In this document: in pieces, positions 26,968 through 63,175 of the stretch | How the letters are laid out: each line of letters opens with the position of its first letter | Numbering within the stretch: the first letter of the stretch is position 1 | Source of the DNA: Chiloscyllium plagiosum | Lineage: Eukaryota | Direction: 5' to 3' | DNA length: 64,000 nucleotides | Assembly (NCBI RefSeq): GCF_004010195.1 | Contig: NC_057752.1 | Coordinates: 7,850,835 to 7,914,834 of the forward strand | Notes under the pieces: model-generated | Told to the model about the DNA's origin: nothing | The model's database searches: none | Seen by the model: the letters and a program-made list of their open reading frames with translations, nothing else | Translations under genes and position numbers: made by a program

Positions 26968-27058
26968 GTCTGATGAAGGGCTTTTGCCCGAAACATCAAT
27001 TTTCCTGCTCCTCGGATGCTGCCTGACCTGCTGTGCTTTTCCAGCACCACTCTAATCA
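26968..27058 (+). mobile_element. Family B Penelope-derived element, 5' part with hammerhead; remainder at 28441-28478
   Basis: CTGATGA-A-GGGC-TTTT-GCCC-GAAA-CATC; sequence resumes as aatctaatctccagcatctgcag after the inner CR1. Confidence 0.8.
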
Positions 27059-29083: not shown

Positions 29084-29652
29084 GTACAGGTACCACGGCA
29101 TTTAATGGTTGAGCTTTATGCACTAGTTACAAAACAGCATATTTTGTTGACGTTGTATCACTTGCTTTGTTCACAGACTGATTGATTAATTTCCTTTTCT
29201 TCTCCCAATGTTTTTCTTTTATATGGGGGTTGGTGAAAGAGAGAAAAAAAGGGGGTAACTTTGCTGTTTTCCCCCCTCTTCTCCATAATTCTTATTTTAA
29301 AAAAGAGCTGTAAACTAATAAATTAATTACACTAATTGCATTTATGGTTTTCTCACTATAAGATTCTAAAGCTAATGGGACTGTTCTTATCTTTTTTTCA
29401 AGTGTTCTCTTGGTTTTAGTTTCTTGTGTTAAATTGTTCTTTTCTGCCTGCTGACTCCTGGCTAAAAGAACAGACAGAAAAGCTGCTCAAATCTTTGCCA
29501 AGACATCTGTTCTCTACACCCTACAATGGCATGGCTAAGCATTCACTGTGAAGACAGCTTATTATGTCATCCATGATTTGAGTGGAGTGCTGTATCATTA
29601 ATAAGTTACATTTTCTTCAGGTTCTTGAGCTGTTGTAACTTTTGTTTTACAG

Positions 29653-30106
29653 AACATTGAACTTCTTTCACAACAACTTCAGAAAGAGTTGCAAGAGGTA
29701 AAGGTGATTGAGGAGACGCTCACAGAAAGCAGCTGTGAGGAAAATGTACCTGCCTTCCCAGAAGAACATCCCAATTTGCCTGGTGCTGTCTTGAAGAATA
29801 GAACAGTTGTTACAGCCTCAAAGCAGCAGGATGCTGAAGAATATATTATTTCTTCCCAATGTACACCTCTGACTCCCATTCCAACACGTAAGCTTATAGA
29901 CTGGTCACGACAGACTAACAGTGTTTCTGGAGCAGCAAATTGCCTTCCTACCATGGACCACCAATCTGAGATATTGCTCCCTTCTGCTAAGCTAACTTTG
30001 AATGTGGTGGACACATTGCCCACGTCCATTTCCCATGGATCTTCTCACTTGCACACAACGGCCCAAGAGTCGAAATTCCAATCCCCTTTTCTCAGTGGAA
30101 GCAGAG
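29653..30106 (+). CDS. TROAP: TROAP large exon (NIELLSQQLQKELQEV...FLSGSR)
   Basis: tttgttttacag acceptor, GAG|gtaagg donor, 454 nt, phase 0-1; start resembles human RIGILQQLLRQEV. Confidence 0.88.
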
Positions 30107-30156
30107 GTAAGGTGTGTGTGTCTGTGTGTGTGTCTGTTTTTTCCCTCGTCCCTATA

Positions 30157-30650
30157 GGACAGATGTTGTGAAACCTGCAAGGGTTCAGGAAGGACTTACG
30201 AGGATGTTGCCAGGGTTGGAGGATCTGAGCTATAGGGAGAGGCTGAACAGGCTTGGGTTGTTTTCCCTGGAGCGTCGGAGGCTGAGGGGTGACCTTATAG
30301 AGGTTTACAAAATTATGAGGGGCATGGATAGGATAAATAGACAAAGTCTTTTCCCTGGGGTCGGGGAGTCCAGAACTAGAGGGCTGAGGTTTAGGGTGAG
30401 AGGGGAAAGATATAAAAGAGACCTAAGGGGCAACTTTTTCATGGAATGAGCTGCCAGAGGATGTGGTGGAGACTGGTACAATTGCAACATTTAAGAGACA
30501 TTTGGATGGGTATATGAATAGGAAGTGTTTGGAGGGATATGGGCCGGGTGCTGGCAGGTGGGACTAGATTGGGTTGGGATATCTGGTCGGCATGGACAGG
30601 TTGGACCGAAGGGTCTGTTTCCATGCTGTACATCTCTATGACGCTATGAC
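30157..30650 (+). mobile_element. CR1 (HER1-like) 3' fragment about 50 nt downstream of a TROAP donor site
   Basis: TRMLPGLEDLSYRERLNRLGLFSLERRRLRGDLIEVYKIM; ctctatga tail. Confidence 0.92.
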
Positions 30651-31207: not shown

Positions 31208-31420
31208 AAGAGAAAGTGAGGACTACAGGTGCTGGAGATCAGAGCCGAAGAGTGTGGTGCTGGAAAAGCACAGCAGGTCAGGCAGCATCGGGGGAGCAGG
31301 AGAATCGGCGTTTCGGGCATAAGCCCTTCATCAGGAAGGGCTTATGCCCAAAATGTCGATTCTTCTGCTCCTCGGATGCTGCCTGACCTGCTGTGCTTTT
31401 CTAGCACCACGCTCTTCGAC
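31208..31420. mobile_element. Family B fold-back element
   Basis: Inverted arms meeting at the hammerhead (about 31330-31340); perfect 14-bp TSD TCCTGGAATTCCCT at 31194-31207 and 31421-31434. Confidence 0.9.
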
Positions 31421-33840: not shown

Positions 33841-34966
33841 CATAGAGTCATGGAGATGTACAGCACAGAAACAGGCCCCTTGGTCCAACTCATCCATGCC
33901 AACCAGATATCCTAAAATAATCTAGTCCCATTTGCCGGCACTTGGTCCATATCCCTCTAAACCCTTCCCATTCAAATACCCATCCAGATGCCTTTTAAAT
34001 GTTGTAATTGTACCAGCCTCCACCACTTCCTCTGGCAGCACGTTCCATACACGTACCACCCTCTGTGTGAAAAAGTTGCCCCTTAGATCTCTTTTATATC
34101 TTTCTCCTCACCCTACACCTCTGCCCTCTCATTCTGGACTCCCCACCCCAGGGAAGAGACTTTGCCTATTTATCCTAACCATGCCCCTTATGATTTTATA
34201 AACCTCTGTAAGGTCACCCCTCAGCCTCCAACACTCCAGGAAAACAGCCTCAGCCTATTCAGCCTTTCCCTGTAGCTCAAACCCTCCAACCCTGGTTACA
34301 TCCTTGTAAATCTTTTCTGAAACCTGTCAAGTTTTATAACATCTTTCCAATAGACGGGAGACCAGAATTGCACACAATATTCCAAAAGTGGCCTAACCAA
34401 TGTCCTATACAGCTGCAACATGACCTCCCAACTCCTATACTTTATGCTTTGACCAATAAAGGCAAGTGTACCAAATGCTGTCTTCACCATCCTGTCTTAC
34501 TGTGACTCCATCTTCAAGGGACTATGAACCTGCACTCCAAGGTCTCTTTGTTCAGCAACACCCCCCAGGATGTTACCATTAAGTGTATAAGTCCTGCCCT
34601 GATTTGCCTTTCCAAAATGCAGCACCTCATATTTATCTAAATTAAACTCTATCTGCCACTTCTCAGCCCTTTGGCCCATCTGATCAAGATCCCATTGTAC
34701 TCTGAGGTAACCACCTCTGCTGTCCACTACACCTCCAATCTTGGTGTCATCTGCAAACTTCCTAACTATACCTCCCATGTTCACATCCAAATCATTTATA
34801 TAAATGATGAAAAGCAGTGGACCCAGCACTGGTCCTTGTGGCACATCACTGGTCACAGGCCTCCAGTCTGAAAAGCAATCCTCCACCACCACCTCTGTCT
34901 TCTACCTTCGTGCCAGTTCTGTATCCAAATAGCTAGTTCATGTGATCTAACTTTGCTAACCAGTCT
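33841..34966 (-). mobile_element. CR1 (HER1-like) RT/3' fragment
   Basis: VPQGPVLGPLLFIIYINDLD, KFADDTKIGG and LVRPLLEYCVQFWSP motifs. Confidence 0.93.
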
Positions 34967-39157: not shown

Positions 39158-39374
39158 GGAGATAGTGAGAACTGCAGATGCTGGAGAGTCAAAGTGGATA
39201 AAGAATGGAGCTGGAAAATGTATGGCAGGTCACACAGCCTCAGAGGAGAAGGGGAGTTGACATTTCAGGTTGTAGCCTTTCATCAGGACTTCATTTGTCC
39301 TGAAATGTCAACTCCCCTTCTCCTCTGATGCTGGCTGACCTGCTGTGCTTTTTCCAGCTCCACTCTTTATCCAC
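39158..39374. mobile_element. Older family B-related fold-back element
   Basis: Inverted arms; flanking repeat TTCTTTTGTA(G/T)CCA at 39141-39154 and 39375-39388. Confidence 0.75.
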
Positions 39375-40046
39375 TTCTTTTGTATCCAACAAGCCATAGA
39401 GTGGGACTTGGGGGGGGATTGGTTACAAAAAGGGCCTTCCAGCTCAGAAACAGAAGAATTGCCCACTTTAGCTTTTATTTTGAACTTTAAACACTTTCTG
39501 TAGATGAACCATTCCAATCTTGTGTATTCTGCTTTTGATTTTAATCTTTGCATTACAAAGGAAACTACACTGTAGCCTGACTCTCCACTGTAGGATAGTT
39601 TTAGAAGTTCTTAACTGAAACATTCAGATTTTCCATTCATATTGTAATACCTTATTGTAAATGTCTCTGCTAAATCTGATAATTTATCTGCAAAGTTTAT
39701 CTTTCATCTTTAGCCATCTTATGATTGCCTTTGTTATTACACTGGTCTGTTCAGGACTTTTGTATGCTGTGTACATTTTGTATATTAACTACTATGCAAA
39801 TAAAGCTTTATTGTATATTTATTTATTTGCTCCTTTGTACTTTTTTTGAAATAGGATTTATTTGTGAAGTCTAGTTTACATTGTTGAACCTGTACCAATC
39901 GATAGTCACTATAAAGAGATATCAGGCTTCTGGTATATGTTTTGTCTATTTTTTCTGAGAAAAGCAATGCATAGAAATTATAACTATTATTTACTGAGGA
40001 GCCAAGATTTGATCCCTGAATCAGCAGTAAAATATATCCATGCATA

Positions 40047-45700: not shown

Positions 45701-46606
45701 CTGCCTTAACTGGTCCTCCCTATCCAGAACATGTAGCCGTCTGGCAGTAGATACTGCATCTAAACCTGCCAACCCCCCCTGGGTGTCATTTGCATCTACA
45801 TTTACTGCTTGAAATGCTACACCACGCAGAAAAAGGGATGGTTATGTAAAAATACAGCATTAGGGGAAAACAAGCTTCAAAATGTTCAAAGAACCTCCTT
45901 CAAAGTCTCCCAGAAACAAAAGTGGATTTGAAAATCTAGCCAAAGCAACAAGCTTTATGTGGACTTTCTGGGGCAGGCTTATATTAGGATTAAGTACCTC
46001 ATTGGCTGGGCAGTGCTTTGGGATGCCCTAAAAGCAAATCTTTCTTTCTTTCTTTCCATAGAATTTCTTACATGTTTGACTGTATTTTTGCATTGATGTA
46101 ATGTATCTCACAAGTAAAGTGAAAAAAATAAAATGTGTTTTTATAACTTGGTTTGGACAGTTTTTAAATTATCAAAATTAGAGGAAAAACTACAATGAAT
46201 GTATTTTTCCATTTTCCTTAGTCCACCCACTCTCAACACCATCACTGCATGATAAGGCAGTTAGTGTCATACTCCTGGCTTCTGCCCTACACTGCTCTAC
46301 AATTGGCCTGTGGCAACTGTGGAAACCCCTCAGAGCTTACCTTCAACAGCCCGGTTGAAGAAAATCTGCTCGCACTTATGAATTTTTGAAACGGCTACTC
46401 TGTGTTCAGGATTTTGAATCTAGAGATCTCTGATCAAACACAGCATTCAACTCCCTAACTGATGAATCCTCGATCACAACTGAATGGATTATCCAAACAA
46501 TCCCAAACAAATGACACAGTTTTGTCCCCATGTTTTTGAAACCAGAATACTGTACACTTCCAGATTCTCTAAAATGGGGTTTCCTCTGTTGTCTTTTCCT
46601 CTGTAG

Positions 46607-46679
46607 TTACATTGGTGACTGTGAAATCAATGTTGAAGTGAAGAAGTATTTCTGCAAAGCTGGAGTGAATGGTATCCAG
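46607..46679 (+). CDS. ESYT1: Extended synaptotagmin-1 exon, SMP domain (YIGDCEINVEVKKYFCKAGVNGIQ)
   Basis: tcctctgtag acceptor, CAG|gtaggt donor, 73 nt; matches ESYT1 YVGDVQIDVEVKKYFCKAGVKGMQ. Confidence 0.95.
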
Positions 46680-48559
46680 GTAGGTCATTTGATGGGAAAT
46701 AGTAAAGCTCAGTACACCTTGCAAACCTGTACACATTTCATAGTACATTTATTGACACTTGAAAAGAAATTCTATTCTATTTAAAATGTCACCTTCAATG
46801 GCTCAGTGGGCACATACATCATCAGGCACAGTTCTAAGCCACACAGATTTGGATGGCTTGATCCCTGGCCTGTGCTCAAATCACTTGTAGAAGCTAGTGT
46901 AACAGTGAAGGCATGACTCCTGCCCTCAGTATCTCCACGCTAGAGAAAGGGCAAACTGGTCAAGATTCCCAGTCAAGGGACTGTAAATGGAAACTACGTG
47001 GGTGGAAGTATGAGGTTCCATCAGATTTGTTGGCAATGGCTTTAGCTCATCAAGCCTCATATGATAACACCTTGTAAATCTGCAACCTCTGTCACCTAGA
47101 AGGGCAAGGGCAGTAAAAGCATGGGAACATCAATATCTACTACTTGCCCTCCAAGCCACATAATGTCATTGGTATTTCTTCACAATTGCTGGATCAAAAT
47201 CCTGGAACTCCCAAACAGCTCTCTGGGTTTACCTACACCACAAAGTAGTTCAAGAAGGCTCACCACAAGTTCTCCAGGTCAGTGAGTGATGGGCAATAAT
47301 TGCCAGTGATGCCCACATCCTGTGAATGAACAAAAAGGATATCTATTTAACAATTCAATACATTTCTCCAATTATATTGAAGAGAGAATCATCAGAGCTG
47401 TTAAGACCCTGCATTGTTATTAGCTTTCAAATAAAGGAATAAACAGCATGAGGTTGAACTGGAAGGAGTCATGTAAGACTGTAAGTTGCGTAAACAAATA
47501 TCAATATTGTAAGGTATAGAAGCCATTATTGAAGTGGATCAGCGGACACTGAACAAAGCAGGCCATTATTATATATTGACTTCTATAGTACTTTTAGCTG
47601 AACAGCTTTTTCTGGCGATTTCTCCTGGATTAAACTTTTCCATAACATCAGTGCTTGCCAGCACAGATTTGTCATAATCCCAAGGAGGTTGTAGTATAAT
47701 CATGTGCTATGCAATACTCTGACAATGCATTTCCTTGTTGCAGTAATAAGTGACAATCCTGACCACTTAGTCATTCCAGCCAAAAATAAATAATGTGGGT
47801 GTGAGGAAATTATGAAATAAGGATAACTGGTTTTGAGAAATAAAATGAAAAGCTGTATTTCCTCATTAAGAATATTGAATACTTTAATTCACCTGTGGAA
47901 CATAGGTGTCACTAACTAGCTGGCATTTATTGCCCATCCCTGATTGCCCCTTTAGGAAGTGGTGGTGTGCTACCTTCTTGAACTACTGCAGTACATGTGC
48001 TGTGGGTTGATCCACAATGCTGTTAGAGAATGAATTCCAGGATTTTTACCCAGTGACAGCAAAGGAACAGCGATATATTTCCATGTCAGGACGGTGGGTG
48101 GCTTGAAGGGGAACTTGCAGCTGGTGGAGTTCCCATGTATCTGCTGCGCTTGTCCTTCTAGATGGAAGTGGTCGTGGATTTGGAAGACTGTCTCAGGATC
48201 TGTGGTGAATTTCTGCAGTGCATCTTGTAGATGGTACACACTGCTGCAACTGAGTGTTGGTGGTGGAGGGTGTGGATGCTTGTGAAATACTGTTCATGTA
48301 CCAGCAGCCAATCCACAGTCAGCAACATACAGCCAGCTTGCAAGATATGCCTATTAGCCAAGCACCAGCTGCTATTCACTCACCCAGCACCAGCTGGATT
48401 TCAGTAGTCAGTGGAGCTGACAGTCTGCTGCCTGGAGAAAAATGTTTTTGGTTCAAATGGCACAGTATTCTGTGGATTGCAAATAAGGTATCATGAACAA
48501 GGCCAATATCATCTAATGATGTCATCAGCAGCCAAACTGCAGACAGTCATCAAAAACCA

Positions 48560-48725
48560 ATCTGACAGTTTGGAAAGGAAAATAGAATTAACCTTTCAGG
48601 TTAATGAACTTTCATCATACATTAACTATGTTTCTCTACCTGCACATACCTACTGACCTGTTGAGTATTTCCAGCACTTTATATTTTTATTTCAGCCCTC
48701 CAGTATCTGCAGTATTTTGCTCTTT
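48560..48725. mobile_element. Old Penelope-derived pLTR fragment (family C-like)
   Basis: ctgacctgttgagtatttccagcactt...ccagtatctgcagt tail shared with the 51331 and 56835 elements; short inverted start. Confidence 0.6.
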
Positions 48726-49472
48726 AACCAGCAGCTAATCTACAAATAGCCGCCAGCAGTTAATCCGCCGCAGCTGATCCGCAACCAACCACATGCAGCC
48801 AATCAGCAATCAGTCCCTATCAGGCAATCATTAGCCAACCAGCAGCTGCTATTCACTCACTCAGCATTAGCTGGGTTTCAGAAATCAGTAGAGCTGGCAG
48901 TCTGCTGCCTGGGGCAAAACTATCTGGGTTCAGATGGCTCAGGTTACAAAAGCATTGATGGACTGAAAGACTTTTGACTGGAAATGACAGCAAGTGGGTA
49001 ACAGTACTGTGAATGGAAGGGGGAGAACTGGAACAGTTAACTTTGATAGCAAATTTCTAACTAAATACTGAAATGTGGTTGACACAACAGATCCATGTGA
49101 GGCAAGCTTAAGGAGAAAGCTACAGGTCTATAAGTAATCTTGTTATGAATTAACTAATGCAGGTTGTTCTGCTCTAATGTGTTTTATTAATATGAATTTG
49201 CTGTAACATGATTTAAAAATTGGGGACACTGGTTCTAAAGCGCAAACTTTTAAAATATGTATTGGTTATAACATAATTCTGGCCTTGTTAGGTTAAATGG
49301 TGCTGCTAATTTGATATTCTGACAACATGGGGTTGCATGAAAACAGAGCTATTGTGTTATAGCAAAACCCACTACTGTATGTAACACATTTCTCTTGAGG
49401 TGTTGCAGCATTTATTATTCAAGTGTCTATTCCTTCATTCACTGACTTTTTTTTTCACCATCTCTCCTACAG

Positions 49473-49562
49473 CTTCATGGGATGCTTCGTGTGATCCTTG
49501 AACCATTGATTGGACAGATGCCATTAGTCGGAGCAGTGACTTTGTTCTTTGTCCGCCGCCCA
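49473..49562 (+). CDS. ESYT1: ESYT1 exon, SMP domain (LHGMLRVILEPLIGQMPLVGAVTLFFVRRP)
   Basis: ctcctacag acceptor, CCA|gtaagt donor, 90 nt. Confidence 0.96.
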
Positions 49563-49584
49563 GTAAGTGTGTGTATGTAATATT

Positions 49585-49905
49585 ATTGGTAGACTATTGA
49601 TCTGGAATCTCAGCTAATCTTCTTGGAATTTGGGTTTGCGTCCCACCATGGCAGATGGAGGAATTTGCATTTAGTAAAAATCTGAAATTGAGAGTCTAAT
49701 GATGACGTGAATCCATTATTGATCATCAGAAAAACCCATCTCATTTGCTAATGTCCCTTAGGGAAGGAAACTGCCAATGTCACTTGGTCTGGCCTGCATG
49801 TGACAGCCCTACAGCATTGTGATTGACTCTTAACTCAATTAGGGATTGGCAATAAATGCTGGCTGAGCCAGTGATGCCCATGTCCCATGAGTGAATATAT
49901 ATTAA
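49585..49905 (+). mobile_element. tRNA-derived SINE whose 3' tail matches the second LINE family
   Basis: B-box-like GGGTTTGCGTCCCACCA; tail caattagggattggcaataaatgctggc...gatgccca.gtcccatga equals LINE ends at 59490-59547 and 47290-47330. Confidence 0.7.
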
Positions 49906-50909
49906 AAACAAAGAGATTAATACAGGAGAACTTAACTAAGGATTTAAGTCAATAATCTTGATTTGGGATTATTGTAGCTTTTTGCTAAATGATTTTGGCT
50001 GTATTCTAGACATGATTCAGAATGAGTTAAGTCTTATGCAATGTGTCTAACACATTTAGCTTATTATTTGCTGCTAAATCACTCCCATTATTAGGAGTTG
50101 TGGTGCAAGGTAGTGAAAGGAAGGGATGCTATGAGTATTCAGGTTGACTCTGAGTCAGTGAGTGCTATGACAGGCTGGTGATATAGCCTGGTGTGTCCCT
50201 GAGCACACAGTGTCCTTAATGCAGCATTACTGTGAGAGTTACCAGTACAGCCTGAGGTGGGGCATTGATGAGCAGAAGTGTCCTGTAAGTGAACCGGAGA
50301 TGTGCCATGAGGGTTCTCACAGGCTGGCACATTGGATGCCAATGTCTGTGGATGTGGGGTGTCTGTAGCTGGTGACCATGGAGCGTGTCCTGAGATGTTG
50401 GTACCTCATGGTACAAGGAGGTTGTCCTGAGATGTTGGTACAAGGAGGTTGTTTGGAGCAAGCAGTGAGCTGAATTCACCAGGTACACACTCTGATTTCT
50501 ATGGTGAGAATTCTTGGCATCTAGTTTGTTTAGTGAGTTTGGGAAGGCAGGAAGCTGAATATTAATGAGGTGAATTGTAACATTGATAAAGCATTTAACA
50601 AACTATAATCCTCCTTAAGTAGCAACTCTCTGCTGCCCAGCAGGAAACTCCCCCTGCTCCTTGGCAATTTCATAAAAGATGCTACAAGTTGCTCCTAAAA
50701 TCGAAATAGGCCTCGCCAGACTTCTCTCTAGATTCTACCACAAATTCGGCCATAGCCGACTTTGCTCAGATCCCTATAAGGTTCCACCCTGTGTTTGAGT
50801 CTTCAATCTGATACGGAAAGGGTCTGTGTTGATTTGACGAATCTGATGCACATGAAATTGAGGTGGTTTTAAATTCTGGAAGTGATTTAGACTTTTTGTG
50901 TCCTTTCAG

Positions 50910-50965
50910 GTACTTGACATAAACTGGACAGGACTTACCAACCTGTTGGATATTCCAGGACTGAG
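50910..50965 (+). CDS. ESYT1: ESYT1 exon, SMP domain (VLDINWTGLTNLLDIPGLS)
   Basis: tcctttcag acceptor, AG|gtattg donor, 56 nt, phase 0-2. Confidence 0.96.
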
Positions 50966-51330
50966 GTATTGATCGATCATAGGGGCAAAACAGAATTAAT
51001 CTGTTCAGGATCAAAACTAATCCAAAGCATTTGGAAGATAATTCTAAGACCCACACAACTTACCTTCTGGAGTTTGGGATTTCTTTTTACCTTTTTTCCC
51101 CACAAATTTTACATCTCATATCCAAACAAAACTAACACACGTTAGAAAATGTAAGCAATAATTTCACAAATATGCAGTATTTTGAGAATTATGACTTGTT
51201 CAGAATTTAATATTTTGTTTAAAAGACAACGACCGCAGGATCCTACAGGGAATCCTGTCAATAGATAGTTTTGAAAGTAGCATGTTCGGAAACACTGCAA
51301 ACAGCTAGAAATACCAGAGAGTTTCCCTGG

Positions 51331-51526
51331 AACAAAAATGGAAATTGCTGGAGAAACTCAGCAACTCTAGCAGTGTTTGTGGAGAGAAAACAGTTAACGT
51401 TTGAGTCCATAGTTCTGAAGAAATCATACTTAACTTGAAACGTTAACTCTGTTTCCTGATTTGCTGAGTTTCTCCAGAAATTTCTGGTTTTGTTTCAGAT
51501 TTCCAGCATCTGCAGTTCTTTGTTTC
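51331..51526. mobile_element. Family C fold-back Penelope-derived element with decayed hammerhead
   Basis: aattgctggagaaactcagca / tgctgagtttctccagaaattt arms; CTGAAGA...GAAACGTTA at about 51415-51445. Confidence 0.75.
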
Positions 51527-51696
51527 AGGTGTACTCAAATAAAACATTTCAGTAAAAGTATTTGCTTTTCATAGGCCTGACCTTTAGATAGCTTTGTGCC
51601 TTTTAAGTTTATATCCATTATATTTTTTTATCCCTTTCTCCTCACTGTCTCGCCCTTATCTCTCTCCTGTCTTCTCTATCTTTTCTCCTTGGACAG

Positions 51697-51817
51697 CTCA
51701 AAGTCTGACACAGTACTTATGGACACCATTGCTTCTTTCCTGGTTTTGCCAAACCGAATCACCTGCCCTCTTGTTGGAGAACTCCGTGTGGCTGAGCTCC
51801 GTTCTCCCCTGCCTCGG
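51697..51817 (+). CDS. ESYT1: ESYT1 exon, end of SMP domain (SKSDTVLMDTIASFLVLPNRITCPLVGELRVAELRSPLPR)
   Basis: Long pyrimidine tract plus ggacag, CGG|gtatgt donor, 121 nt; LRSPLPR is ESYT1-type (ESYT2 has LRFPVPK). Confidence 0.95.
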
Positions 51818-52500
51818 GTATGTATCACACTGTATGATTTCACCAAATTACTGCCAATAAAATTGCTTCTTGTGTTGCGAATACCTAGTTTGTGGACTTA
51901 ATATAACAAGTAATTAAGATTAGAACAGAAATAGATGATGGCTCTTAATTGATTATTTGATGCCTGGATATGTAAAGGAGCTATCATAGTGCAGTGGTAA
52001 TGTCCCTACCTCTGAGCCAGGAGACCTGGTTTCAAGTCTCAAATGCTTCAGATGTGCACAATAACACCACCTGAACAGGTTGGTGTTGTTTGTTTTTTTT
52101 AAGAACAGGGTAAAAGCTGGGACTGGGAGAGAGGTTGGCCTTTTATGGTCAGTAATCTGCACAAAGGAAGTCTGTCTCTTAGTTTGAATCTAATTAACAA
52201 TGGTTCATGTGTTTTAATATATCACTTTTTTAGTTTAAGGAATTAAATTTTAATGATAGAGTATGGGATAAATGCAATTATAGCAATGAAAGACTGGTGC
52301 ATATTTAAATGTTTGGGGTCATGTTTCTTTAAGAGGATAACAGCTAGGAAGTTCAGGGTTAGTGTTGGGCTTTAGTAATTGCAAAATTGCAACTGGTTGA
52401 TTAGAACACCTAAACAAAAGGCAGTACATATTTGTTTGATAGAATTGTATTACACAGGATTGATTTTACATGTTGTACTTTACCCATGGAAGGTAAGATT

Positions 52501-52835
52501 TCAATTCACCTGACCTGCACATCTTTGACTGTGGGAGGAAACCGGAGCAAACCCAGAGGGAGAATGTGCAAACTCCACACAGACAATTGCTTGAGGTGGG
52601 AATTGAACCTGGGTCCCTGGTGCTGTGAGGCTGCAGCGCCAGGGACCCAGGTTCAATTCCTGCCTCAAGCAATTGTCTGTGTGGAGTTTGCACATTCTCC
52701 CTCTGGGTTTGCTCCGGTTTCCTCCCACAGTCAAAGATGTGCAGGTCAGGTGAATTGACAGAGGGAGAATGTGCAAACTCCACACAGACAATTTCTTGAG
52801 GTGGGAATTGAACCTGGGTCCCTGGCACTGTGAGG
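52501..52835. repeat. HE1-like SINE inverted triplication (-,+,-) forming a ~258-bp near-perfect palindrome
   Basis: 52501-52625 is the reverse complement of 52634-52758; 52759-52835 repeats 52553-52629. Confidence 0.9.
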
Positions 52836-52867
52836 TACATTAGTAGGTAAAGTTTCTTACACAAGAC

Positions 52868-54455
52868 TGAGTCCAGTGACCCTTCGTCAGATCTGGAGAC
52901 GGGCCTCAGAAACATCCACCTTTTTTTTTTTTCCTCAATCGAGGATTCCCCACTATCCCCACAGCTCTCAGCTGCGTCTGACCTCTTTCTGTATTTCTAA
53001 TCTCACCTTTCCCTTGCCTTCCCTCCCACAATGATAGAGTTCCCCGGTCCTCGCCTATCATCTCACTAGCCTCCACAACCAAAGGCTCATAAGCTGCCAT
53101 TTCTTCCCCCACCAGCAGGATACTATCACCACACACACAATTTCCCTCCCCACCTTTGTCAGCCTTCCATAGGGACCACTCCCTCCAGGACACCCTGGTC
53201 CAGCCCTCCTCTGCTCCCATCACCTTCCCATACCCCCATAGCACTTTCCAATGCAATTGAGGAAAGGATAATATTTACACATTTACCTCCTCCGTACCTA
53301 CATGATCCAAGGCCCTGACACACCCTACTGGGGAAGCAATGACTTAGCTGCACTTCACACAATCTAGTCTACTGTATTCGCTGCTCATGATGTGGTCTCC
53401 TTTACATCGGGCAGACAAAGCACTGACTGGGTGACGATTTTGCAAAACTCCTATTCTACCATAAAAATGACCCTGCGCTTCCAGTTTTCTGCTACTTTAA
53501 CACGCTGCCATGTTCCTTGGCCAACATCTGTCTCAGGCTAGCTGAAGTGCTCCAGTGAGGCTAAGTGCAAGCTGGAAGAACAGCATCTTATCTTCCACCT
53601 TACATCCTTCGGGACTCAACATTGAGTTTGACACATTCAGAATGTGATCACCCTCTGCCACCGCTAGGTCCCGTCCAATATGGGCTGCTCCCAGCACAGT
53701 CAACCCACTTTAAATCATTACACTTCTTGACAGCACTCAACCATGCTATTATCTCCCACGACTTACCAGCAATCTCTTTATTTGCCTATTCATTGAGTCA
53801 TAGTCATACAGCACGGAAACAGACCCTTCCTTCAGTTCAACTCGTCCATGCCAACCAGGTTTCCCAAACTAAACTACTCACATTTGCCTGCATTTCATCC
53901 ATATCCTTAATGTTTCCTAGTCATGTACCTGTTCAAATGTCTTTTAAATGTTGTGACTACCTGCATTTACCACTTCCTCTGACAGTTCATTCCATATACG
54001 CACCGTCCTGTGGAAAAAGTTGCCCCTCCGTTCCCTTTTAAATATGATTCCCCTACTTTTGAACTCCCCCACCCTAGGAAAAGAACTTTGCTATTCACCC
54101 TATCCATGCCCCTCATGATTTTATAAATCTCTTAGGTGACCCTCAACTTCCTACACTCCAGAGGAAAAGAAAGCCTATACTTATAACTCAAACCTTCCAG
54201 TTCAGTAACATCCTTGTAAATATTTTCTTCACCCTTTCCAATTTAATAATATCCTTTCTATAACAAGGCAACCTGAACTGTATGCAATTCCACACCCCCA
54301 CCCCATTATTAGTATAAATTCCACCTTTCCCCAGCTATCTTCAGTTCTGACAATGGGTCACTGTACTGCAAACATTAACAGATGCTGCCAGACCTGCCCT
54401 GCTTCTCCACACTGTTTTTCAGATTTCCAGCATCTGCATTTCTATGTCTCTATTT
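52868..54455 (+). mobile_element. 5'-truncated Penelope-like element with GIY-YIG endonuclease remnant, inverted 5' pLTR piece and 3' pLTR; CR1 inserted at 53795-54290 (-)
   Basis: TSHNLVYCIRCS*CGLLYIGQTKH*LGDDF at about 53352-53442; gagtccagtgacccttcgtcaga (52869-52891) is inverted relative to tctgacaatgggtcactgtact (about 54346). Confidence 0.85.
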
Positions 54456-55640
54456 TGGAATTGGAGCTGAATTAGTTTAAAAGCAATCAGTAAATCCGAG
54501 AAGTCAGTTTGAAGATAGCAAAGCAGACCGTGTCATCATGGAGGTTAACAATGTTCTCTTAGAGTCATACAGATGTACAGCATGGAGTTTCAATGGAGCT
54601 GCCTATTTGTTGGGAGAGGTGTTCACTTGCAGTTTGGAGCTGGGCAAATGCTAAAGCAGAACTAGTAGCTCCAAGCAGCACAAGTTTTGTTAGCAGACTC
54701 CAGGTAGTTTGGGCTCAGGAAAGGTCCCAGGGTGTGATTGCTCCATACCATAGAACGTAGCTCAGGCTAACTGGAAGCCATTGATTGTTCAGTACAGGTA
54801 AGAGAAGGAGTGCCAACCACCGTGCCACCTAATATACAGTGTATGTGGTTTTAAATTCTTGTCCTATCTGTTTAGTCATTATTATTTTTTATTTGTTTTG
54901 TTCAAGTTTGAATACTTAAGATTTTTGGGCATTTCAATTCAACTTTGAATTCCTGCTACTAATTTTTCTGACCCTTGTTCTTCCACATGTTGTTGTATTC
55001 TTACTGTCTATCAAGCCAGATCCCAACAAGGATCTAGTTTGTCTGGTATTCTTTTCACTGGGATCATAACTCCTGTGGTGGGATTGCTCCAAGATGGTGC
55101 TGCTTTGGTGTGCAAGCAGCAAAATCCCTCACCAACCAATTATAGCATTATAGTTATGGTTTGATTTGTTTGTGTGGATAGACATTTTTAACTTCACCAC
55201 TTGAGTGCTAACCAGATGGGGCACATTGTAAGGTGTTTGTTCATTGATTTCAGTGGGATACAACGTCTGCCAACTAACTGCCTATATGGTGATGAAAATG
55301 GTCCTGACCCCACCAGTCTACTTTTGAACTGATGCTCCTCCAGATAGAACATTTTTCAATGCCACAAGTACCAGGAAACTAGAGTGGCATAATTTCTCTG
55401 GGAAGTATACTCTACTCTAGTGATAACAGTAGCAGAAAGGGTGAAAACTAGTGCTGCTGCCATATTATTTGACGAAGTCCTGTGTTATTGCTAACACCAA
55501 ACAAATACCTCATGCCATGCAGAGTATGTGGCTTGTACTCAGTTAATTTTTATTTCTACACTCCACAGCATTTCTTTATTCCATGTGAAATAATCCAGTC
55601 CTTCAGAAAGGAAATCTTAAACTTGTCTATTTATCCCTAG

Positions 55641-55817
55641 GGAATAGTGCGGATCTATCTAATTGAAGCAGCAAGCCTGGAATCAAAGGACACCTACGTT
55701 AAGGGATTCATTAAAGGAAAGTCTGATCCATATGCAATTGTACGAGTGGGCACACAGGCATTCATGAGCAAGACTGTCAGTGAAACAGTGAATCCCAAGT
55801 GGAATGAAATGTATGAG
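55641..55817 (+). CDS. ESYT1: ESYT1 exon, C2A domain (GIVRIYLIEAASLESKDTYVKGFIKGKSDPYAIVRVG...PKWNEMYE)
   Basis: ttatccctag acceptor, GAG|gtgggt donor, 177 nt; GKSDPY and PxWNE C2 motifs. Confidence 0.97.
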
Positions 55818-56834
55818 GTGGGTGAATATGATTGCATGTCTCATAGTCATTTCAACCTTTTTAACCAGCAGCTTAAAATATGACTTCTGCAATTCCCAGG
55901 AAAACAGTTTTGTGATATACTGGCTGTAGAGGTTTAAAATCTGAAGCAGGACTCAAATTTGTGAATGTCAGGGAATTCTGGCATTTTCACCCTGAACCTA
56001 CAAATGCAACTTAGCCTGGTCAATCTCGCAGAGCCCTCCTAACCAACACCTGCACGCTTGTCTCACATTTGAAAGAACTGTCCCACAGACTCAGTGACTG
56101 CCTGGCATTGTAAGGTGTGATTCCATGAGTATGACTGTGTCACAGGCACTACCATCACCAACTCTGGACAAACCCAGCAGAGATGATGGCATAGTGATAC
56201 ACAGTCATGAACGAGGTGCTCTCGGTGTTCACAACATTAATTCTGACACCTCCATGGTATTGGTTTGGACATTGGGTAGGAAACCTGCTGGTTACCACGC
56301 ACCATCCTCCCTTGGCCGATGACTCTGTGCTCCTCCACATTGAACAGTAGTTTCAACAAGCACTGAGGGTGGCAAGGGCACAACATACACAAGGTAGGAG
56401 ATTTCGATGTCCCTCATCAAGATTGGCTCGGCAGCAGCCCTACTGACTGAGCTGGCCGAGTCTGAAAGGGCATAACGAGACTGGGCCTGCGACAGGCAGT
56501 GAAGAAAAACAGGAGGAAAAAACCTACTTGACCTACACCTCAATTTTCCCAGCAGAGATGCGTTCATCTGTGACAATATCAATAGGAGTGACCATTGCAC
56601 AGTCCACGTGGAAATGAAGTTCTGTTTCTACATTGAGGATACCTTCCATCATGTTGTGTGGCATTATCACTGAGCTAAATATGACAGACTTTGAACAGAT
56701 CTAGCAACTAAAGAAGGCATCCATGAGGTGCTGTGGGCCACCATCAACAGCAGAATCATACTTGGCACAATTTTTGTAAACTTTTTACCAGGCATCTCCC
56801 TCACTCTACTGCTCCCATTAAGCCATGGGATCAA

Positions 56835-57027
56835 AATCGGAAATTGCTGGAGAAACTCAGCAGGTCTGGCAGCATCTGTCAAGAGAAATCTGAGTTAATG
56901 TTCTGAAGAAGGATCACTGGATCCAAAAACATTTACTCTGCCTCCTCTCCCCAGTTACTGGCAGTCCTGTTGAGTTTCTCCAGAATTTTTTTCTTTCCAA
57001 TTCCAGCAGCTGCAGTTCTTTAATTTT
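56835..57027. mobile_element. Family C fold-back element
   Basis: Inverted arms; CTGAAGA-A-GGATC-ACTG-GATCC-aAAA; TSD AGCCA(T/A)GGGATCAA at 56821-56834 and 57028-57041. Confidence 0.82.
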
Positions 57028-58744
57028 AGCCAAGGGATCAACCCTGGCTCAATGGGGAGTGCGCGATGGCATGCCAAGAGCAGCACCGAGCACACCTAAA
57101 AATGAGGCGTCAACTTGTGAAGCTACCAAACTTGTATGGAAAAGGAGCATATTGTAGAGAGAACTAAGTATTCCACAACCGATGGATCAGATCTAAGCTC
57201 TGCAGCCCTGGCAAATCTAGTTGTAAATGGTGGCAGGCAAATAAACATTTCACTGGAGGAATAGGCTCCAAACATCTCCACTGTCAACAATGGTGGAGCA
57301 CAGCACATCAGTGCAAATGATAAGGCTGAAGCATTTCTCACACTCTTCAGCCAGAAGTGTCGATCCATTTTGGCCTCCACCAGAGATCCCCATCATCACA
57401 GATGCCAGTCTTCAGCCAATTCGATTCAAGAAATGATTGGAGACGCTGGATACTACAAAGGCTATGGGTCCTGACAACATTCTGGCAACAGTACTGAAGA
57501 CTTGTGCTCCAGAACTTGTCGCTCCCCTAGCCAAGCTGCTCCAGTACAATTACAATACTGGCATCTACCCAACAATGTGGAAAATTGTCCAGCCCTGCCT
57601 TGTCCACAAAACGTAGGGCAAATCCAATCCACCCAATTACCACCCCATCAGTCTACTCTCAATCATCAGTAAAGTGATGGAAAGGATCATCAACAGTGAT
57701 ATCAATCAGCATTTGCAAAGATATAATCTGCTCAGTTTTGGTTCTGTCAGGATCATTCTGACCTCATTATAGCCTTGGTTCAAATATGGACCAAAGAGCT
57801 GAATTCCAGATGGGAGGTGAGTGACTGCCCTTGACATCAAGACCACAGCATTTGAGTGAGTATGGCATCAAGGAGCCTAGCAAAACTTTAGTCAGTGAGG
57901 ATTGCGGGAAATCCCTCTGCTGGTTGGAGTCCCATTTAGCACAAAGCAGGATAGTTTTTGTTGGAAGTTAATCATCATCTGAACCCTCAGATCTCTGCAG
58001 GCATTCCTCAAGGTAGTGTCCAATCTGCTTCATCAATGACTGCTCCTACATCAGAAAATGTAGATGTCAGTGGGGATGTTTGCTGATGATTGCACAATGT
58101 TTTGGAGCATTGTGACTTCTCTGACTTATTGAAACAGTTTGTGCCCACAGCAAGATCTGCACAATTTTTGTGCTTGGGCTGATAAGTGGCAAGTAACATT
58201 GCCTGGCACATGAGACAAAACTGACCATCTCCAATGAGAGAATCTAACCATTGTCCCTTGACATTCAATGGTTTTACCAACAGTAAATCTTCCACTATCA
58301 AAATCCTGAGAGTTACTATTGACAGAAACTAAACTGGACTGGCCGTATAAATTCTATGGCTGAAAAAGTAGGTCAGAGGCCAGGAGCCTGTGGTGAGTAA
58401 TTGACCTCCTGACTCCCCAAAACCCATCTATTGAAAAGGCACATGTCAGGAGTGTGATAGAATTCTCCCCACTTGTCTGGGTGAATGCAACTCGAACACC
58501 ACACAAGAAGCTTGACACAATTGAGAAAAAAGCAGCCTGCTTGACGGAACCTCGTGCATCACCTCCACCATCCTCTCTTTCACTACTGATACTTACTTAA
58601 TAGTGGCAGTATGTACTATCTACAAGATGCACTGCAGAAATTCAAGGCTTCTTCCAAGCCCATGACCACTTCCAGAAAAGCAAGGGCAGCAGTACAAGGG
58701 AACACCACCACATCAAAGCCCCTCACCATCCTGGCTTGGAAACA

Positions 58745-59366
58745 CAGAGGAACCTCCAATTATCCAAATTTCGGATTATCCAAAGAAGATTTCAAGGTCC
58801 CACAAAAGTGTTGTATCAAAGAAGTAAGTGTGTTTGATTTACCTGTACTGAAGAACATGTGAAAACGCTGGCAAAAACAAAGATTCAAGCATCAGCGACT
58901 GGACTTTTTTTTTAAGGTAAGGGTTGTTACACAGCCTTTTGCAAAAGTAAGTGTTTTACAGCACGGGGTATTCCTGTCACTTTACCAGGCCATTCACTAA
59001 AAACAAAATGGCCACGAACGTGAATGCATGCACGAGGCAGTGTTTCTGTCTTTCTATCGTGAGACTGAGTTCCCGGAAACTGACAAATCCTCTTGCGATT
59101 GTAGAAGCTGTTCAGGACCTTTGTTTGATGCTGGGATTTGATATACGGTATTAGTGATGCTGAGTCCTTCTCAGTTTAACCTGAAATTTGCAGACTGCAA
59201 GGATTGTTTAAATGACACACACACACTCATTAAAATTATAGATTTAAACTAATTCTCTAGTCGAGCACAGCTTTCGATCAGTATGGCTTCCCTTGTTTAA
59301 GGTAAAATCAATTATCTGAACGAAATAGTGCCCGCCCATCTCATTCAGATAATCGACGTTCCTCTG
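58745..59366. mobile_element. Tigger-like non-autonomous DNA transposon inserted in the LINE 3' region
   Basis: TIR CAGAGGAACCTCCAATTATC / GATAATCGACGTTCCTCTG followed by TA; host LINE sequence resumes after it. Confidence 0.75.
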
Positions 59367-59684
59367 TATATTGCAGTTCCTTCACTTGCTGGATCGAAAT
59401 CTTGGAGCTCTCTTCCTAACAGCATTATAGGTCTACCTACACCGTGGATTGCAGCATTTCTACTGAAGGCATACCACCACCTTCTTGAGGGCAACTAGGG
59501 AAGACAATAAATGCTGGCTAAGCCAACAATACCCACATCCCATGAATGATTTTCTTTAGACAAATGTTTCAGTGTTCACTTATCTTTGTTTTTAAAATGG
59601 CCGTCTCTCGAAGTTCTAAGTCTGTCTGTCCTCTTTCCCTGTCTCTCTGGGCCATAGACTACACAATACTTGAGATGTTTGGTG

Positions 59685-59951
59685 CTGAAAATGTGTTGCT
59701 GGAAAAGCACAGCAGGTCAGGCAGCATCCAGGGAACAGGAGAATCGACGTTTCGGGCATAAGCCCTTCTTCAGGAATCTTCCTAACAGCATTATAGGTCT
59801 ACCTACACCAAGTGGATTGCAGCATTTCTACTGAAGGGCTTATGCCCGAAACGTCGATTCTCCTGTTCCCTGGATGCTGCCTGACCTGCTGCGCTTTTCC
59901 AGCAACACATTTTCAGCTCTGATCTCCAGCATCTGCAGACCTCACTTTCTC
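59685..59951. mobile_element. Young family B fold-back element with captured genomic loop
   Basis: Near-identical inverted arms; perfect 16-bp TSD CTTGAGATGTTTGGTG at 59669-59684 and 59952-59967. Confidence 0.92.
59744..59775 (-). ncRNA. Minimal hammerhead ribozyme motif, intact core
   Basis: Minus strand UC-CUGAAGA-A-GGGC(UUAU)GCCC-GAAA-C-GUC-GA. Confidence 0.78.
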
Positions 59952-60134
59952 CTTGAGATGTTTGGTGACCTGTGTATTCTTTGTCACGAACAGTATGGGA
60001 GAAAGGAGCAATATTCCATCAAAGGTCATTATCTTTTTTTTCCTCAGTATCTTAGCTAGCATCATATTCGAAATGGAGAATATTCTCCAATTTCAGCATA
60101 GTCTGGAACTGCGTAGACTCACACACCATTAACT

Positions 60135-60485
60135 CTATCTACACCCTTTTATTATTTTATAAACTTCCTTCAGGTCACCTCTCAACCTCCTACGCTTCAG
60201 TGAAAAAATTCCCAGCATTTCTTTATAATTCAAACCTTCCATACCCAGCAATAGCCTGGTAAATCTCTTCTGAATAACCTCTAGTTTAATAATATCCTTC
60301 TTATAACGGGTGACCGGAACTGGACACATTATTCCAGAAGAGGCCTCACCCATGTCCTGTACAATCTCAACATAATGTCCTAACTCATGTACGCAAAGGT
60401 CTGAGCAATGAAGGCAAATGTGCTAAATGCCTTTTTAACTACCCTGTCCATATGTGACATAAATTTTAAAGAATTATGTACCTGA
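60135..60485 (-). mobile_element. CR1 fragment
   Basis: IQKRFTRLLLGMEGL...RRRLRGDLKEVYKII. Confidence 0.85.
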
Positions 60486-61658
60486 AACAGTTACTTTTTT
60501 AACTGGTAAGTTTTTTTTTAATCCGGACTGGAAGATTCAAGTCATGAAAATCTTTCAATAAAGTCGGAGTGCAAGAATGTGTGTTTCCTGTAGAACAAGA
60601 GTTGCCCCACTGGCATCAACCCTTTTGACCATAGCATATTGCACATCATGCAAAAGCAAATGATTTGCACTACATGATGAAATAAGGCATATTGAAATAA
60701 ACCACAGCAATATTACAATTGTGGATATATAACTGCAAATAAACAAAAGCCACACATTTCATTTTTGGGAGGGGACATTACTGAAAAAGAATCATTTTCA
60801 CGTTATGTTGCCAGCAATCAGTTCCAAAAATAAAATGTCAAGAGATCCAGAAGTACATGTGACTAGAAAGGCTATTCTATAATGAAAGAGGGAAGCAAAA
60901 CTAAGTGTCACCCTAAAAAGAAATCAGCTTCTGCAATGTACTGGTACCATCTGTATGACATTGAAATTAATCGCATTATCTCTAATGCTGCTGAAATGCT
61001 TTTCCATCAGTCATGCTTGTCAGTGACTATTTCCCTATTTACTCGCTTAAGAGGTTACACAACAATTCAACCTAGCTTTTCACTTAGGTGAGTGATGATG
61101 TGAAACAAGTTTTGAGACTCCCTTGTATGCGTCACCAAATAGCACTGCAGTCCCTCCTATCCACTATACATGATATACGCTGTCCACAGATAAAGGGTGG
61201 AGTATGAGCAGTGTGCATATAGATGCTCCAATGACATTATTGATCAGCAAAGCAGTTTTTGTAATTTGTGCATAGAATCCCCTCAGTTAATATTTCTTTC
61301 TCACCTGCTGTATTTGTCTTTAACTCAGCAACAGCCACAAACATCTCCTGCATATCCTTTGTTACTGTTGTCCAATTTTGCCCCAGTGAGCACATTGCTG
61401 ATATCTAGCGCTAGATAGTGATATGACAGAATTATACTCTGCTTTGGAATTAATTTTTTTTTTCCATTTGCTAATTTTAGTGTATTATGATCACAAAGTG
61501 GGCAAAATCACCCATTGATTTTGAGAGAATGAAACAACTTCTGGGAGATGGAAAAACTAAATTTCTATGTTGTTGGAATTTATAGAAAAGGATAGTTTTG
61601 AATAGCAGTATATCCTGTGAGTTCTCTTTTCTGACCCTTGAGTTTCTACACTTCACAG

Positions 61659-61741
61659 GTGATTGTCCATGAAGTTCCTGGTCAACTGTTGGAAATTGAG
61701 ATATTTGATAAAGACCCAGATCAGGACGATTTCCTGGGCAG
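61659..61741 (+). CDS. ESYT1: ESYT1 exon, C2A domain (VIVHEVPGQLLEIEIFDKDPDQDDFLGR)
   Basis: cttcacag acceptor, AG|gtgaga donor, 83 nt; VHEVPGQ, FDKDPD and FLGR are ESYT1-type; Ca2+-binding aspartates present. Confidence 0.96.
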
Positions 61742-62714
61742 GTGAGAGCACTAAACATCTGTGTACATGTATGAGTCAGTATTAATGGTCATGCATCTAG
61801 GACTGTATGAGCATATGTGCGTTCATTTGGCTTTATATTAATACTTTGTCTCCAAATACCACCTGTCACATCCCTCATTACTTGCCTCTGCAAGTGTACA
61901 TTTTCATCCTCAAACTGTTTACTGCCCCTGTAATCTAGCACCCCAATCATAAACAACAAATCTGTATCACAACCATGGAATGAATATAATGAAAACTCGG
62001 GATAATCTATGCTTCGCAATCAAGTCAGTCTTGCAGATCACCATCCAAGCAATGTCAAACCAAACAGGAATGTAACCTGTTGCGCATTGGGTTGTGCAAT
62101 TCATGTTTATAAAGCAACATATCATCTATGCTATGGAAGAAATGCTAAATTTAAAATAAAACTTACAGGGGAAATTGATAAAGTATCACAAGATGGAGAT
62201 ACATGTGGCAATGTTTGTGTCCAGTGTTACTGTAACTAAAAATATTGTTGCAATACTCAATATATCAGAAGCAAACTCAACAAGGGTTGCCACTTAACGA
62301 GCTCAATATTAGGAAAATTAGCTCCATGAATAATATCAGGTTATGGTATAATAAAGAGTTATTTTGAGCCCTCTTAAAAAGAAACCATTTGACTTGGACA
62401 CTAAATACTGCTACTTTTAAACTAAATTGAATGAGATTTGGTAAAATCTCAAACGAACACTCGAGCAATAATAAAATAAACAGGTTTTCCATTGCAGTAT
62501 ATCAACAGAAAACATGTAGAAAATAGTAACCTCTCCCTTTGTACTTTTACAGATCACTTCCCCATCATTTATCGTACACTCCTTTGCTTCCCCCCCCTTA
62601 TTTGATTCTTGTTTTTTGTGAATGTTTAGAGGGGCCTTGATTGTTTCTTGTTCGAACACCAGTGTGCTTGGAATGGGTGTGAGAGGGTGATATGAGTATT
62701 TCTTTTGCTTTCAG

Positions 62715-62763
62715 AATGCAGCTGGACCTTGGGGAAGTAATGAAAAATCAAATAGTGGAAGAG
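62715..62763 (+). CDS. ESYT1: ESYT1 exon (MQLDLGEVMKNQIVEE); gene continues beyond the window
   Basis: ttttgctttcag acceptor, GAG|gtaagg donor, 49 nt, phase 2-0. Confidence 0.92.
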
Positions 62764-63175
62764 GTAAGGAGTTGCGGAGATGCTGACATAACTGCTGGCC
62801 AAAGGGAAGAAGAATAAAAGGGCACTGTCTTCATGAAAAATCTAGACAAAACTAAAGAGTGCAAGTTATTTTTGGTGATGTTATCATATGAATGTATGAC
62901 AAAATTCTACCATTTTAGAAGTGACCTTAACAAATTTAGAATAAATAGATTAACATCTCCATTAAAACAAAGAAATTTGACCGGAATGCATTAAACAGTC
63001 ATGGGATGATGTCATTCTGTCATTTCTAGTCATATGCTGTTTGAGGAAGGATTGCATCATTTGTGGCATGTTTATATCACACATTAATTGCGTTTTGGGC
63101 TTGTGTTATGATACAACGGTGAACCCCTCTGTTAATTAAACCAAACACCCAGAAAAGCTCACCTTGCCTCATGAT

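What the first reader, a model, noticed from the sequence alone, without database searches (positions are those of the whole stretch)
59411..59967. Fold-back element whose loop is a copy of host DNA from about 200-260 bp upstream of the insertion site
Seen: the spacer between the two arms (59777-59837) duplicates 59411-59469 except for a 2-nt indel, and joins the right arm through a CTGAAG(G) microhomology with the hammerhead core; the element has a perfect 16-bp TSD. Inference: the polymerase switched template from element to neighbouring chromosome and back during integration. This is a mechanistic footprint of how the inverted pLTR forms and shows these elements can capture host sequence.
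Basis: partly seen in the sequence, partly recalled or inferred. Interest (0 to 1): 0.7.

Follow-up and report, generated by a model that had tools for sequence, protein, structure and literature searches.

The report
Flank copy inside Penelope fold-back
A short, dead, hairpin-shaped insertion of a Penelope-like jumping gene holds, where its two mirror-image halves meet, a 61-base copy of DNA from about 200 bases away; it is a real and well-preserved trace of a polymerase borrowing a nearby template, a kind of event already known from other retrotransposons.

Summary
59777-59837 copies 59411-59469 (59 of 59 aligned bases, plus AA) inside a 267-nt Penelope-like inverted-pLTR stub with a 16-nt TSD. 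It lies in an intron of an extended-synaptotagmin gene. The donor is itself an old repeat, but the spacer matches the local copy (59/61) far better than 4 paralogues (41-46/61). The AA looks ancestral, so the donor lost it after the duplication, which argues against an assembly artefact. The in-register microhomology is GAAGG (5 nt), the nearest such site to the break. Each arm has sequence the other lacks. Best model (0.6): two separately primed cDNAs, one of whose 3' ends annealed 200 nt into the opposite flank, copied 61 nt and was then end-joined. Later repair of the palindrome centre (0.22) and a switch onto intron RNA (0.12) remain open. Templated insertions are known for L1 and polymerase theta, and host DNA between pLTRs is known from a rotifer. 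No listed contig spans the spacer junctions and the empty site was not seen. Real, locally informative, not a new system.

The parts
59411..59469 (+). Donor of the spacer (59 nt now; 61 nt before a 2-nt loss after 59443)
   Evidence: AA present in one organism-C contig
59379..59554 (+). Old dispersed repeat (3'-end-like piece, family not identified) that contains the donor; window paralogues 68-80% identical
59465..59469 (+). GAAGG microhomology in the donor; the only GAAGG on the + strand in 58700-59777
59669..59684 (.). Left target-site duplication (16 nt)
59685..59777 (-). Short inverted arm (pLTR end without tail); reaches 9 nt further upstream in the element than the long arm
59746..59773 (-). 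Minimal hammerhead-like motif with a complete core, a 4-bp stem II and no real helix III (sequence reading only; no Rfam hammerhead hit)
   Evidence: motif definition in PMC4209133
59777..59837 (+). Spacer: 61-nt templated copy of the donor in direct orientation; first base shared with the short arm, last 5 shared with the long arm
59833..59951 (+). Long arm (sense pLTR end), hammerhead core truncated at the junction
59917..59951 (+). One-sided tail of about 35 nt
   Evidence: similar tail in the other 3 fold-backs of the family
59952..59967 (.). Right target-site duplication (16 nt)
55818..61658 (+). Host intron (GT-AG, about 5.8 kb) between two C2-domain exons of an extended-synaptotagmin-like gene; holds both donor and element
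   Evidence: Pfam SMP_LBD and C2 hits on + strand; exon edges

Best explanation
A templated insertion made while a Penelope-like insertion was being sealed. SHOWN: TSD, head-to-head arms, one-sided tail, local origin and direct orientation of the spacer, 5-nt and 1-nt microhomologies. INFERRED: (1) the element's endonuclease nicked both strands about 16 nt apart and both ends primed reverse transcription, one at the outer start site (long arm with tail, bottom strand) and one at the inner site (short arm, top strand). (2) The two cDNAs were both antisense and could join only through microhomology. (3) The bottom-strand cDNA end paired through its last 5 nt with the nearest GAAGG on the top strand of the left flank, about 310 nt in from that strand's 3' end, exposed by normal 5'-to-3' resection or by strand invasion. 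(4) A polymerase (host polymerase theta or the element's RT; not distinguishable here) copied about 56 more nt and let go; had it not, about 200 nt of flank, the short arm and one TSD would have been lost. (5) The extended end was joined to the short-arm cDNA with 1 nt of homology and filled in. (6) Later the donor lost 2 nt and one arm base changed. The product is a dead stub; the spacer has no evident function.
For: Spacer matches the local donor at 59/61 against 41, 44, 44 and 46/61 for 4 paralogues, and shares the donor's state at 11 columns where at least 3 of 4 paralogues differ (6 of these in the well-aligned core 59427-59457). The insert sits exactly at the arm-arm junction and both TSD copies are intact. 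Microhomology of 5 nt or more arises at 0.38% of random junctions, and this GAAGG is the only one on the + strand in 58700-59777. Neither arm is a subset of the other here or in the copy at 2082-2347. Centres differ among the 4 window fold-backs: clean 3-nt join, 9-nt filler, element-derived extension, host copy; contigs of 4 runs show many different joints and fillers (15 shown, 1133 more; 12 fillers shown, 788 more). A purified PLE protein cuts and extends both strands, from two RT start sites that define the tail (PMC11167929). L1 inversion junctions are resolved by end-joining (PMC11702581) and L1 insertions with flank-templated pieces are known (10.1101/2024.08.27.596794). Arms (1 change in 85), TSDs (0 in 16) and spacer/donor (0 substitutions, one 2-nt indel) are all about equally young.
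Against: One locus cannot date the spacer relative to the insertion; similar low divergences allow either order. Polymerase theta insertions are generally under 25 bp (PMC12426944) and L1 templated pieces typically come from within 15 bp of the site, whereas this is 61 nt from 200-258 nt away. An intact TSD suggests that the end was protected from processing (argued for L1 in PMC11702581), which sits uneasily with long resection. A spacer-free join through the 3-nt GAA, as in the copy at 31210-31415, was available, so a spacer-free precursor is possible. No listed contig spans either spacer junction (32 pieces shown, 325176 not shown).
Confidence: 0.6

Rival explanations
1. The element inserted as a near-perfect palindrome; the centre later extruded, was cut, and was repaired with a templated insertion from the resected left flank. 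The spacer would then say nothing about integration.
For: Palindrome centres break and are stabilised by asymmetric changes in mouse and cell lines (review PMC8701086). The strand folds at -113.8 kcal/mol, z -26. Removing the spacer leaves a centre like that of the copy at 31210-31415. The geometry (bottom-strand end annealing into the left overhang) is the same as in the best model.
Against: In the same review 93% of 118 centre rearrangements were deletions, spacer inclusion was uncommon, and those palindromes were kilobases long. An older spacer-free fold-back of this family persists in the window (31210-31415, arms 88% alike), so 85-bp arms need not be unstable. The spacer predates the donor's AA loss, which is shared by contigs of two runs of organism A (no AA at depth 11.3 and 18.2), so it is not very recent.
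Confidence: 0.22
2. The element's RT jumped from its own RNA onto nascent host pre-mRNA (the + strand intron) at GAAGG, copied 61 nt of RNA, and the cDNA was then joined to the second arm.
For: Donor and element lie in one intron of a + strand gene, so pre-mRNA has the right polarity for the bottom-strand cDNA; no resection is needed, which fits the intact TSD. Earlier unchecked scan notes describe two similar cases with intronic donors. Template jumps were proposed for rotifer Penelope elements (PMC3846280).
Against: RNA and top-strand DNA have the same sequence, so there is no positive sign of RNA. The donor is the nearest matching site on the side and strand that DNA end-annealing predicts; an RNA template could lie anywhere in the transcript. 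Whether the gene is expressed in the germ line was not examined.
Confidence: 0.12
3. The spacer came from another copy of the old repeat, or was already in the source element and is shared by many copies.
For: The donor belongs to a dispersed repeat with 6 paralogous hits in this window alone.
Against: 59/61 to the local copy against 41-46/61 to the 4 paralogues aligned, with shared derived states. The other 3 fold-backs lack it. Loose ends behind 59777 (232, 192 and 141 contigs in 3 runs) give a consensus unlike the spacer, agreement 0.37-0.42.
Confidence: 0.02
4. Assembly artefact caused by the hairpin in a gapped assembly.
For: The window has three N gaps; PLE inverted structures trouble short-read assemblies (PMC8557442); no listed contig spans the spacer junctions, and an X15 contig runs through 59411 without a break.
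Against: The spacer has two bases that the present donor lacks but that all 4 aligned paralogues have at those columns and that one organism-C contig has as the same AA (depth 3.1, single contig); copying donor reads could not supply them. An X1 contig starts exactly at 59411, where a fork is expected if the segment exists twice (weak; depth 4). Contigs with haplotype differences from the window run into the element at the left end (X1, 17 nt) and right end (X15, 21 nt), short of the tool's 31-letter bridging rule.
Confidence: 0.04

Closest known systems
Inverted-pLTR insertions with a one-sided tail of endonuclease-bearing Penelope-like elements (PMC3846280; PMC8557442; PMC11167929)
   Same: Head-to-head arms, TSD, 30-40-nt tail on one arm, minimal hammerhead-like motif in the repeat.
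   Different: Here only the pLTR ends are present (267 nt, no ORF), and the junction holds a mapped copy of flanking DNA; the passages read describe palindromes or overlaps at this junction.
Templated insertions in L1 retrotransposition (22 instances among about 3,600 solo L1s, 10.1101/2024.08.27.596794; also PMC11702581)
   Same: A short non-element segment that duplicates nearby genomic DNA is built into the insertion; proposed to arise when the cDNA leaves its RNA and pairs with nearby DNA.
   Different: Different element class (no poly-A priming, overlapping arms); donor 200-258 nt away rather than typically within 15 bp; insert at the inversion junction.
Polymerase theta templated insertions at double-strand breaks (review PMC12426944)
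   Same: Priming by a few paired bases on the other end's flank, aborted synthesis, re-joining.
   Different: 61 nt is longer than the usual under 25 bp; the enzyme was not identified here.
Host DNA between pLTRs in Adineta vaga (Pen1 spacers, NRPS gene; PMC3846280)
   Same: Non-element DNA enclosed by pLTRs within a TSD.
   Different: There the captured DNA is 0.9-1.5 kb or a whole gene, lies between direct pLTRs and is thought to be mobilised; here it is a 61-nt local duplication with no sign of onward movement.

Membership tests
EN+ Penelope-like element | ORF with telomerase-like RT and GIY-YIG endonuclease | not testable with these tools
   The copy is a 267-nt non-coding end; no genome is held. 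No GIY-YIG Pfam hit among 207 of 249 window ORFs of 62 aa or more scanned; the two RVT_1 hits lie in other repeats.
EN+ Penelope-like element | Inverted 5'-truncated pLTR joined head-to-head to a direct pLTR | tested here: met
   Arms 84/85 complementary; 4 fold-backs of the family in the window.
EN+ Penelope-like element | 30-40-nt tail on one end only | tested here: met
   About 35 nt here and a similar tail in the other 3 fold-backs.
EN+ Penelope-like element | Target-site duplication | tested here: met
   16/16; candidate TSDs of 13-16 nt (one mismatch allowed) at 4 other copies. Empty site not seen.
EN+ Penelope-like element | Minimal hammerhead motif in the pLTR | tested here: inconclusive
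   Core bases, the extra unpaired base and a 4-bp stem II are present on the left arm (definition), but no Rfam hammerhead model hits, folding z is -0.44 and cleavage was not tested.
Templated insertion (retrotransposon junction or polymerase theta type) | Insert maps to DNA flanking the same break | tested here: met
   59/61 local against 41-46/61 for paralogues.
Templated insertion (retrotransposon junction or polymerase theta type) | Microhomology at the priming junction | tested here: met
   5 nt, chance 0.38% per junction; other junction 1 nt.
Templated insertion (retrotransposon junction or polymerase theta type) | Dependence on polymerase theta or on the element's RT | not testable with these tools
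   Needs genetics or biochemistry.
Templated insertion (retrotransposon junction or polymerase theta type) | Formed in the same event as the insertion | tested here: inconclusive
   Arm, TSD and spacer divergences are all near zero; no spacer-free or empty allele among the listed joints.
PLE-mediated transduction of host DNA | Captured sequence moved to new loci with the element | tested here: not met
   Spacer absent from the other 3 window fold-backs and unlike the loose-end consensus at 59777; no genome-wide search was possible.

The most novel reading that the evidence does not exclude
The head-to-head junction of Penelope-like insertions is routinely made by joining two independently primed cDNAs, and their free 3' ends search hundreds to over a thousand bases of the target locus (resected DNA or nascent intron RNA) for microhomology, possibly by the PLE RT itself. 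Fold-back spacers in this genome would then be a large natural record that decides between the self-priming model and two-ended priming plus end-joining.
Probability: 0.25. Interest if true: 0.55.

Novelty: new member of a known kind. Interest (0 to 1): 0.33.

Why it matters
How PLEs build their inverted pLTR is not settled: self-priming was proposed from genome structure (PMC3846280), while in vitro both target strands are extended (PMC11167929). A junction that holds flank-templated DNA shows that a free, extendable 3' end existed at the centre. One locus cannot settle the mechanism, but 78,047-88,270 contigs per run matched this 901-nt stretch, with depth concentrated on the arms, and earlier unchecked scan notes list similar cases, so a survey of spacer side, orientation, distance and age is feasible. 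The event itself has no apparent biological consequence.

Tried and rejected
Whole-genome survey of spacers: no genome is held for this window, so the frequency rests on 4 fold-backs. Rfam: 0 hits at gathering score in the window; 7 sub-threshold hits in 59600-60050, six microRNA-precursor models and one cis-regulatory model, rejected as reflecting the hairpin or chance. Empty allele: not among the 15 joints shown (1133 hidden); organisms B and C have little or no cover of the unique flanks (bins with depth 22 and 23 of 30), which proves nothing. Spacer junctions: no listed piece spans them. Depth in the donor bin (8-36, against 10^6-10^7 on the arms) was not used as a copy number, because contigs that fit two places may be laid on the spacer. 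Protein atlas on the ORF at 29629-30108: no usable hit. The repeat holding the donor was not classified (no Pfam hit on its ORFs). Two of 6 paralogous hits (47168-47239, 49836-49894) were left out of the alignment because they do not span the donor. The arm comparison printed was off by one base and was redone. Look-ups of earlier findings by sequence, by words and near this place returned nothing. Literature: searches showed no paper listing flank-templated spacers at PLE inversion junctions; the library lacks most subscription papers and I saw only listings for most hits.

Full report
Observation. 59411-59443 and 59444-59469 recur exactly at 59777-59809 and 59812-59837, with AA between them. 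A 16-nt direct repeat flanks 59685-59951. The arms pair at 84 of 85 positions and the strand folds at z = -26. Among 2956 random 61-mers of the window, the only ones with a 33-nt exact match within 2 kb were 3 drawn from this locus.

The element. It is one of at least six copies of a short repeat in the window, four of them fold-backs (59685-59951, 31210-31415, 2082-2347, 39158-39376). All four have a long arm ending in a tail of about 35 nt and a short arm stopping within a few bases of the same inner point. This is the 'inverted pLTR plus tail' pattern of endonuclease-bearing Penelope-like elements (PMC3846280, passages and Discussion; PMC8557442, passages). In PMC11167929 (parts 1-2 of 4: abstract, main text, part of methods) a purified PLE protein cuts and extends both target strands, and the tail is the stretch between two RT start sites. 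The left arm carries a complete minimal hammerhead-like core at 59773-59746 on the minus strand, of the type described in PMC4209133 (part 1 of 4; also passages of PMC6155905); Rfam models do not detect it. No PLE ORF could be tested, so membership rests on architecture. That the genome is a shark's comes from earlier scan notes and recall; I did not test it. The site is in a 5.8-kb intron of a + strand gene with SMP and C2 domains; the name extended synaptotagmin is my reading of that domain pair.

Is the donor really local? The donor lies in an old dispersed repeat with six paralogous hits in the window, so this needed testing. The spacer matches the local copy at 59 of 61 positions and the four paralogues that span it at 41-46. 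Donor and spacer share a state against at least 3 of 4 paralogues at 11 columns, 6 of them in the well-aligned core. The other three fold-backs have no such spacer, and contigs that run on past 59777 give a consensus unlike it. The origin is local.

Polarity of the indel. All four paralogues have two bases where the donor has a gap. One contig of organism C (172 nt, depth 3.1, 10 substitutions and 4 gap letters over 59371-59538; a single low-depth contig and only probably orthologous) has AA at exactly this place, while the two organism-A runs and the organism-B run show no AA there. So the spacer most likely preserves the older state and the donor lost two bases afterwards. An assembler copying donor reads could not have produced this. 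The same contig has G at 59429 like all paralogues, whereas donor and spacer have A, so the duplication followed that change. Contigs of two organism-A runs from two studies, each with differences from the window, enter the element at its left (17 nt) and right (21 nt) ends; this is short of the tool's bridging rule, and either run may be related to the assembly's source. No listed piece spans the spacer junctions, one X15 contig crosses 59411 unbroken, and no empty allele was among the joints shown.

Junctions. The left has 1 nt. Five or more occurs at 0.38% of random junctions, and this is the only GAAGG on the + strand from 58700 to 59777, hence the nearest to the break. The longer homology marks the likely priming side (inference): the bottom-strand cDNA of the long arm extending leftwards on a + sense template. 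The short arm has 9 nt of upstream element sequence that the long arm lacks, and the long arm has the tail; the copy at 2082-2347 shows the same with about 80 nt, while in the copies at 31.2 and 39.2 kb the extra bases are on the long arm. Simple self-priming of the tailed cDNA would put them always on the long arm, unless later deletions intervened.

Mechanism. Most likely (0.6) both target ends primed cDNA, the bottom-strand end paired with the flank of the opposite end, was extended, released and end-joined to the second cDNA. This parallels L1, where inversion junctions are closed by end-joining (PMC11702581, passages) and 22 templated insertions were found among about 3,600 solo insertions, typically under 250 bp and from within 15 bp of the site (10.1101/2024.08.27.596794, passages and section 4). 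That paper's supplementary figure on distances was not seen and may show cases as far away as this one. It also parallels polymerase theta insertions, though these are generally under 25 bp (PMC12426944, passages). A later break at the palindrome centre gives the same geometry (0.22; PMC8701086, passages), and removing the spacer leaves a centre like that of the 31.2-kb copy. A jump of RT onto the host intron RNA has the right polarity and would explain the intact TSD (0.12). Which polymerase acted is not shown.

Novelty. Both ingredients are known: flank-templated pieces in retrotransposon insertions, and host DNA between pLTRs (PMC3846280). Searches showed no paper on flank-templated spacers at PLE inversion junctions, within a library that lacks most subscription papers. 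Earlier scan notes on this genome describe similar single cases (236 nt from about 1 kb; 143 nt from 1.3 kb); they are unchecked AI notes, not support, but they suggest that a survey would find more. Verdict: a real, unusually clean fossil of a known kind of event; interest 0.33. It becomes more interesting only as one of many, if a genome-wide table of such spacers separates the models of inverted-pLTR formation.

Noticed in passing
window 31210-31415: A spacer-free fold-back of the same family inserted into another copy of the same old repeat, a few bases before the position homologous to the spacer's start; TSD about 14 nt; centre joined through 3 nt. Probably coincidence given both repeats' abundance.
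   Followed up: partly
window 2082-2347: Fold-back whose tail-less arm carries about 80 nt of upstream element sequence missing from the tailed arm.
   Followed up: partly
window 39158-39376: Older, diverged fold-back of a related subfamily with a 9-nt filler at the centre.
   Followed up: partly
window 1425-1752 and 15178-15328: Fold-backs of two other repeat families with hammerhead-like cores; the first has an 11-nt filler at the centre that repeats adjacent words.
   Followed up: partly
window 52501-52835: Palindrome (96% alike arms) of a SINE-like repeat followed by a 77-nt direct duplication of part of it (52554-52630 = 52759-52835).
   Followed up: no
window 46515-62830, + strand: Exons of an extended-synaptotagmin-like gene (SMP domain near 46.6 and 51.7 kb; C2 domain near 55.7, 61.7 and 62.7 kb).
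   Followed up: partly
window 29629-30171: 180-aa open frame on the + strand that looks like a large exon; no Pfam or atlas hit.
   Followed up: partly
window 48353-48465 and 48830-48942: 113-nt local direct duplication, 83% identical, not found elsewhere in the window.
   Followed up: no
window 25526-28290, 34500-34901, 10126-10533: Broken retroelement pieces: endonuclease and RT fragments of LINE type, and an aspartyl-protease fragment.
   Followed up: no
window 59308-59356: Small imperfect inverted repeat (19-nt arms) with high contig depth in all four runs, 55 nt left of the donor; probably a remnant of another repeat.
   Followed up: no
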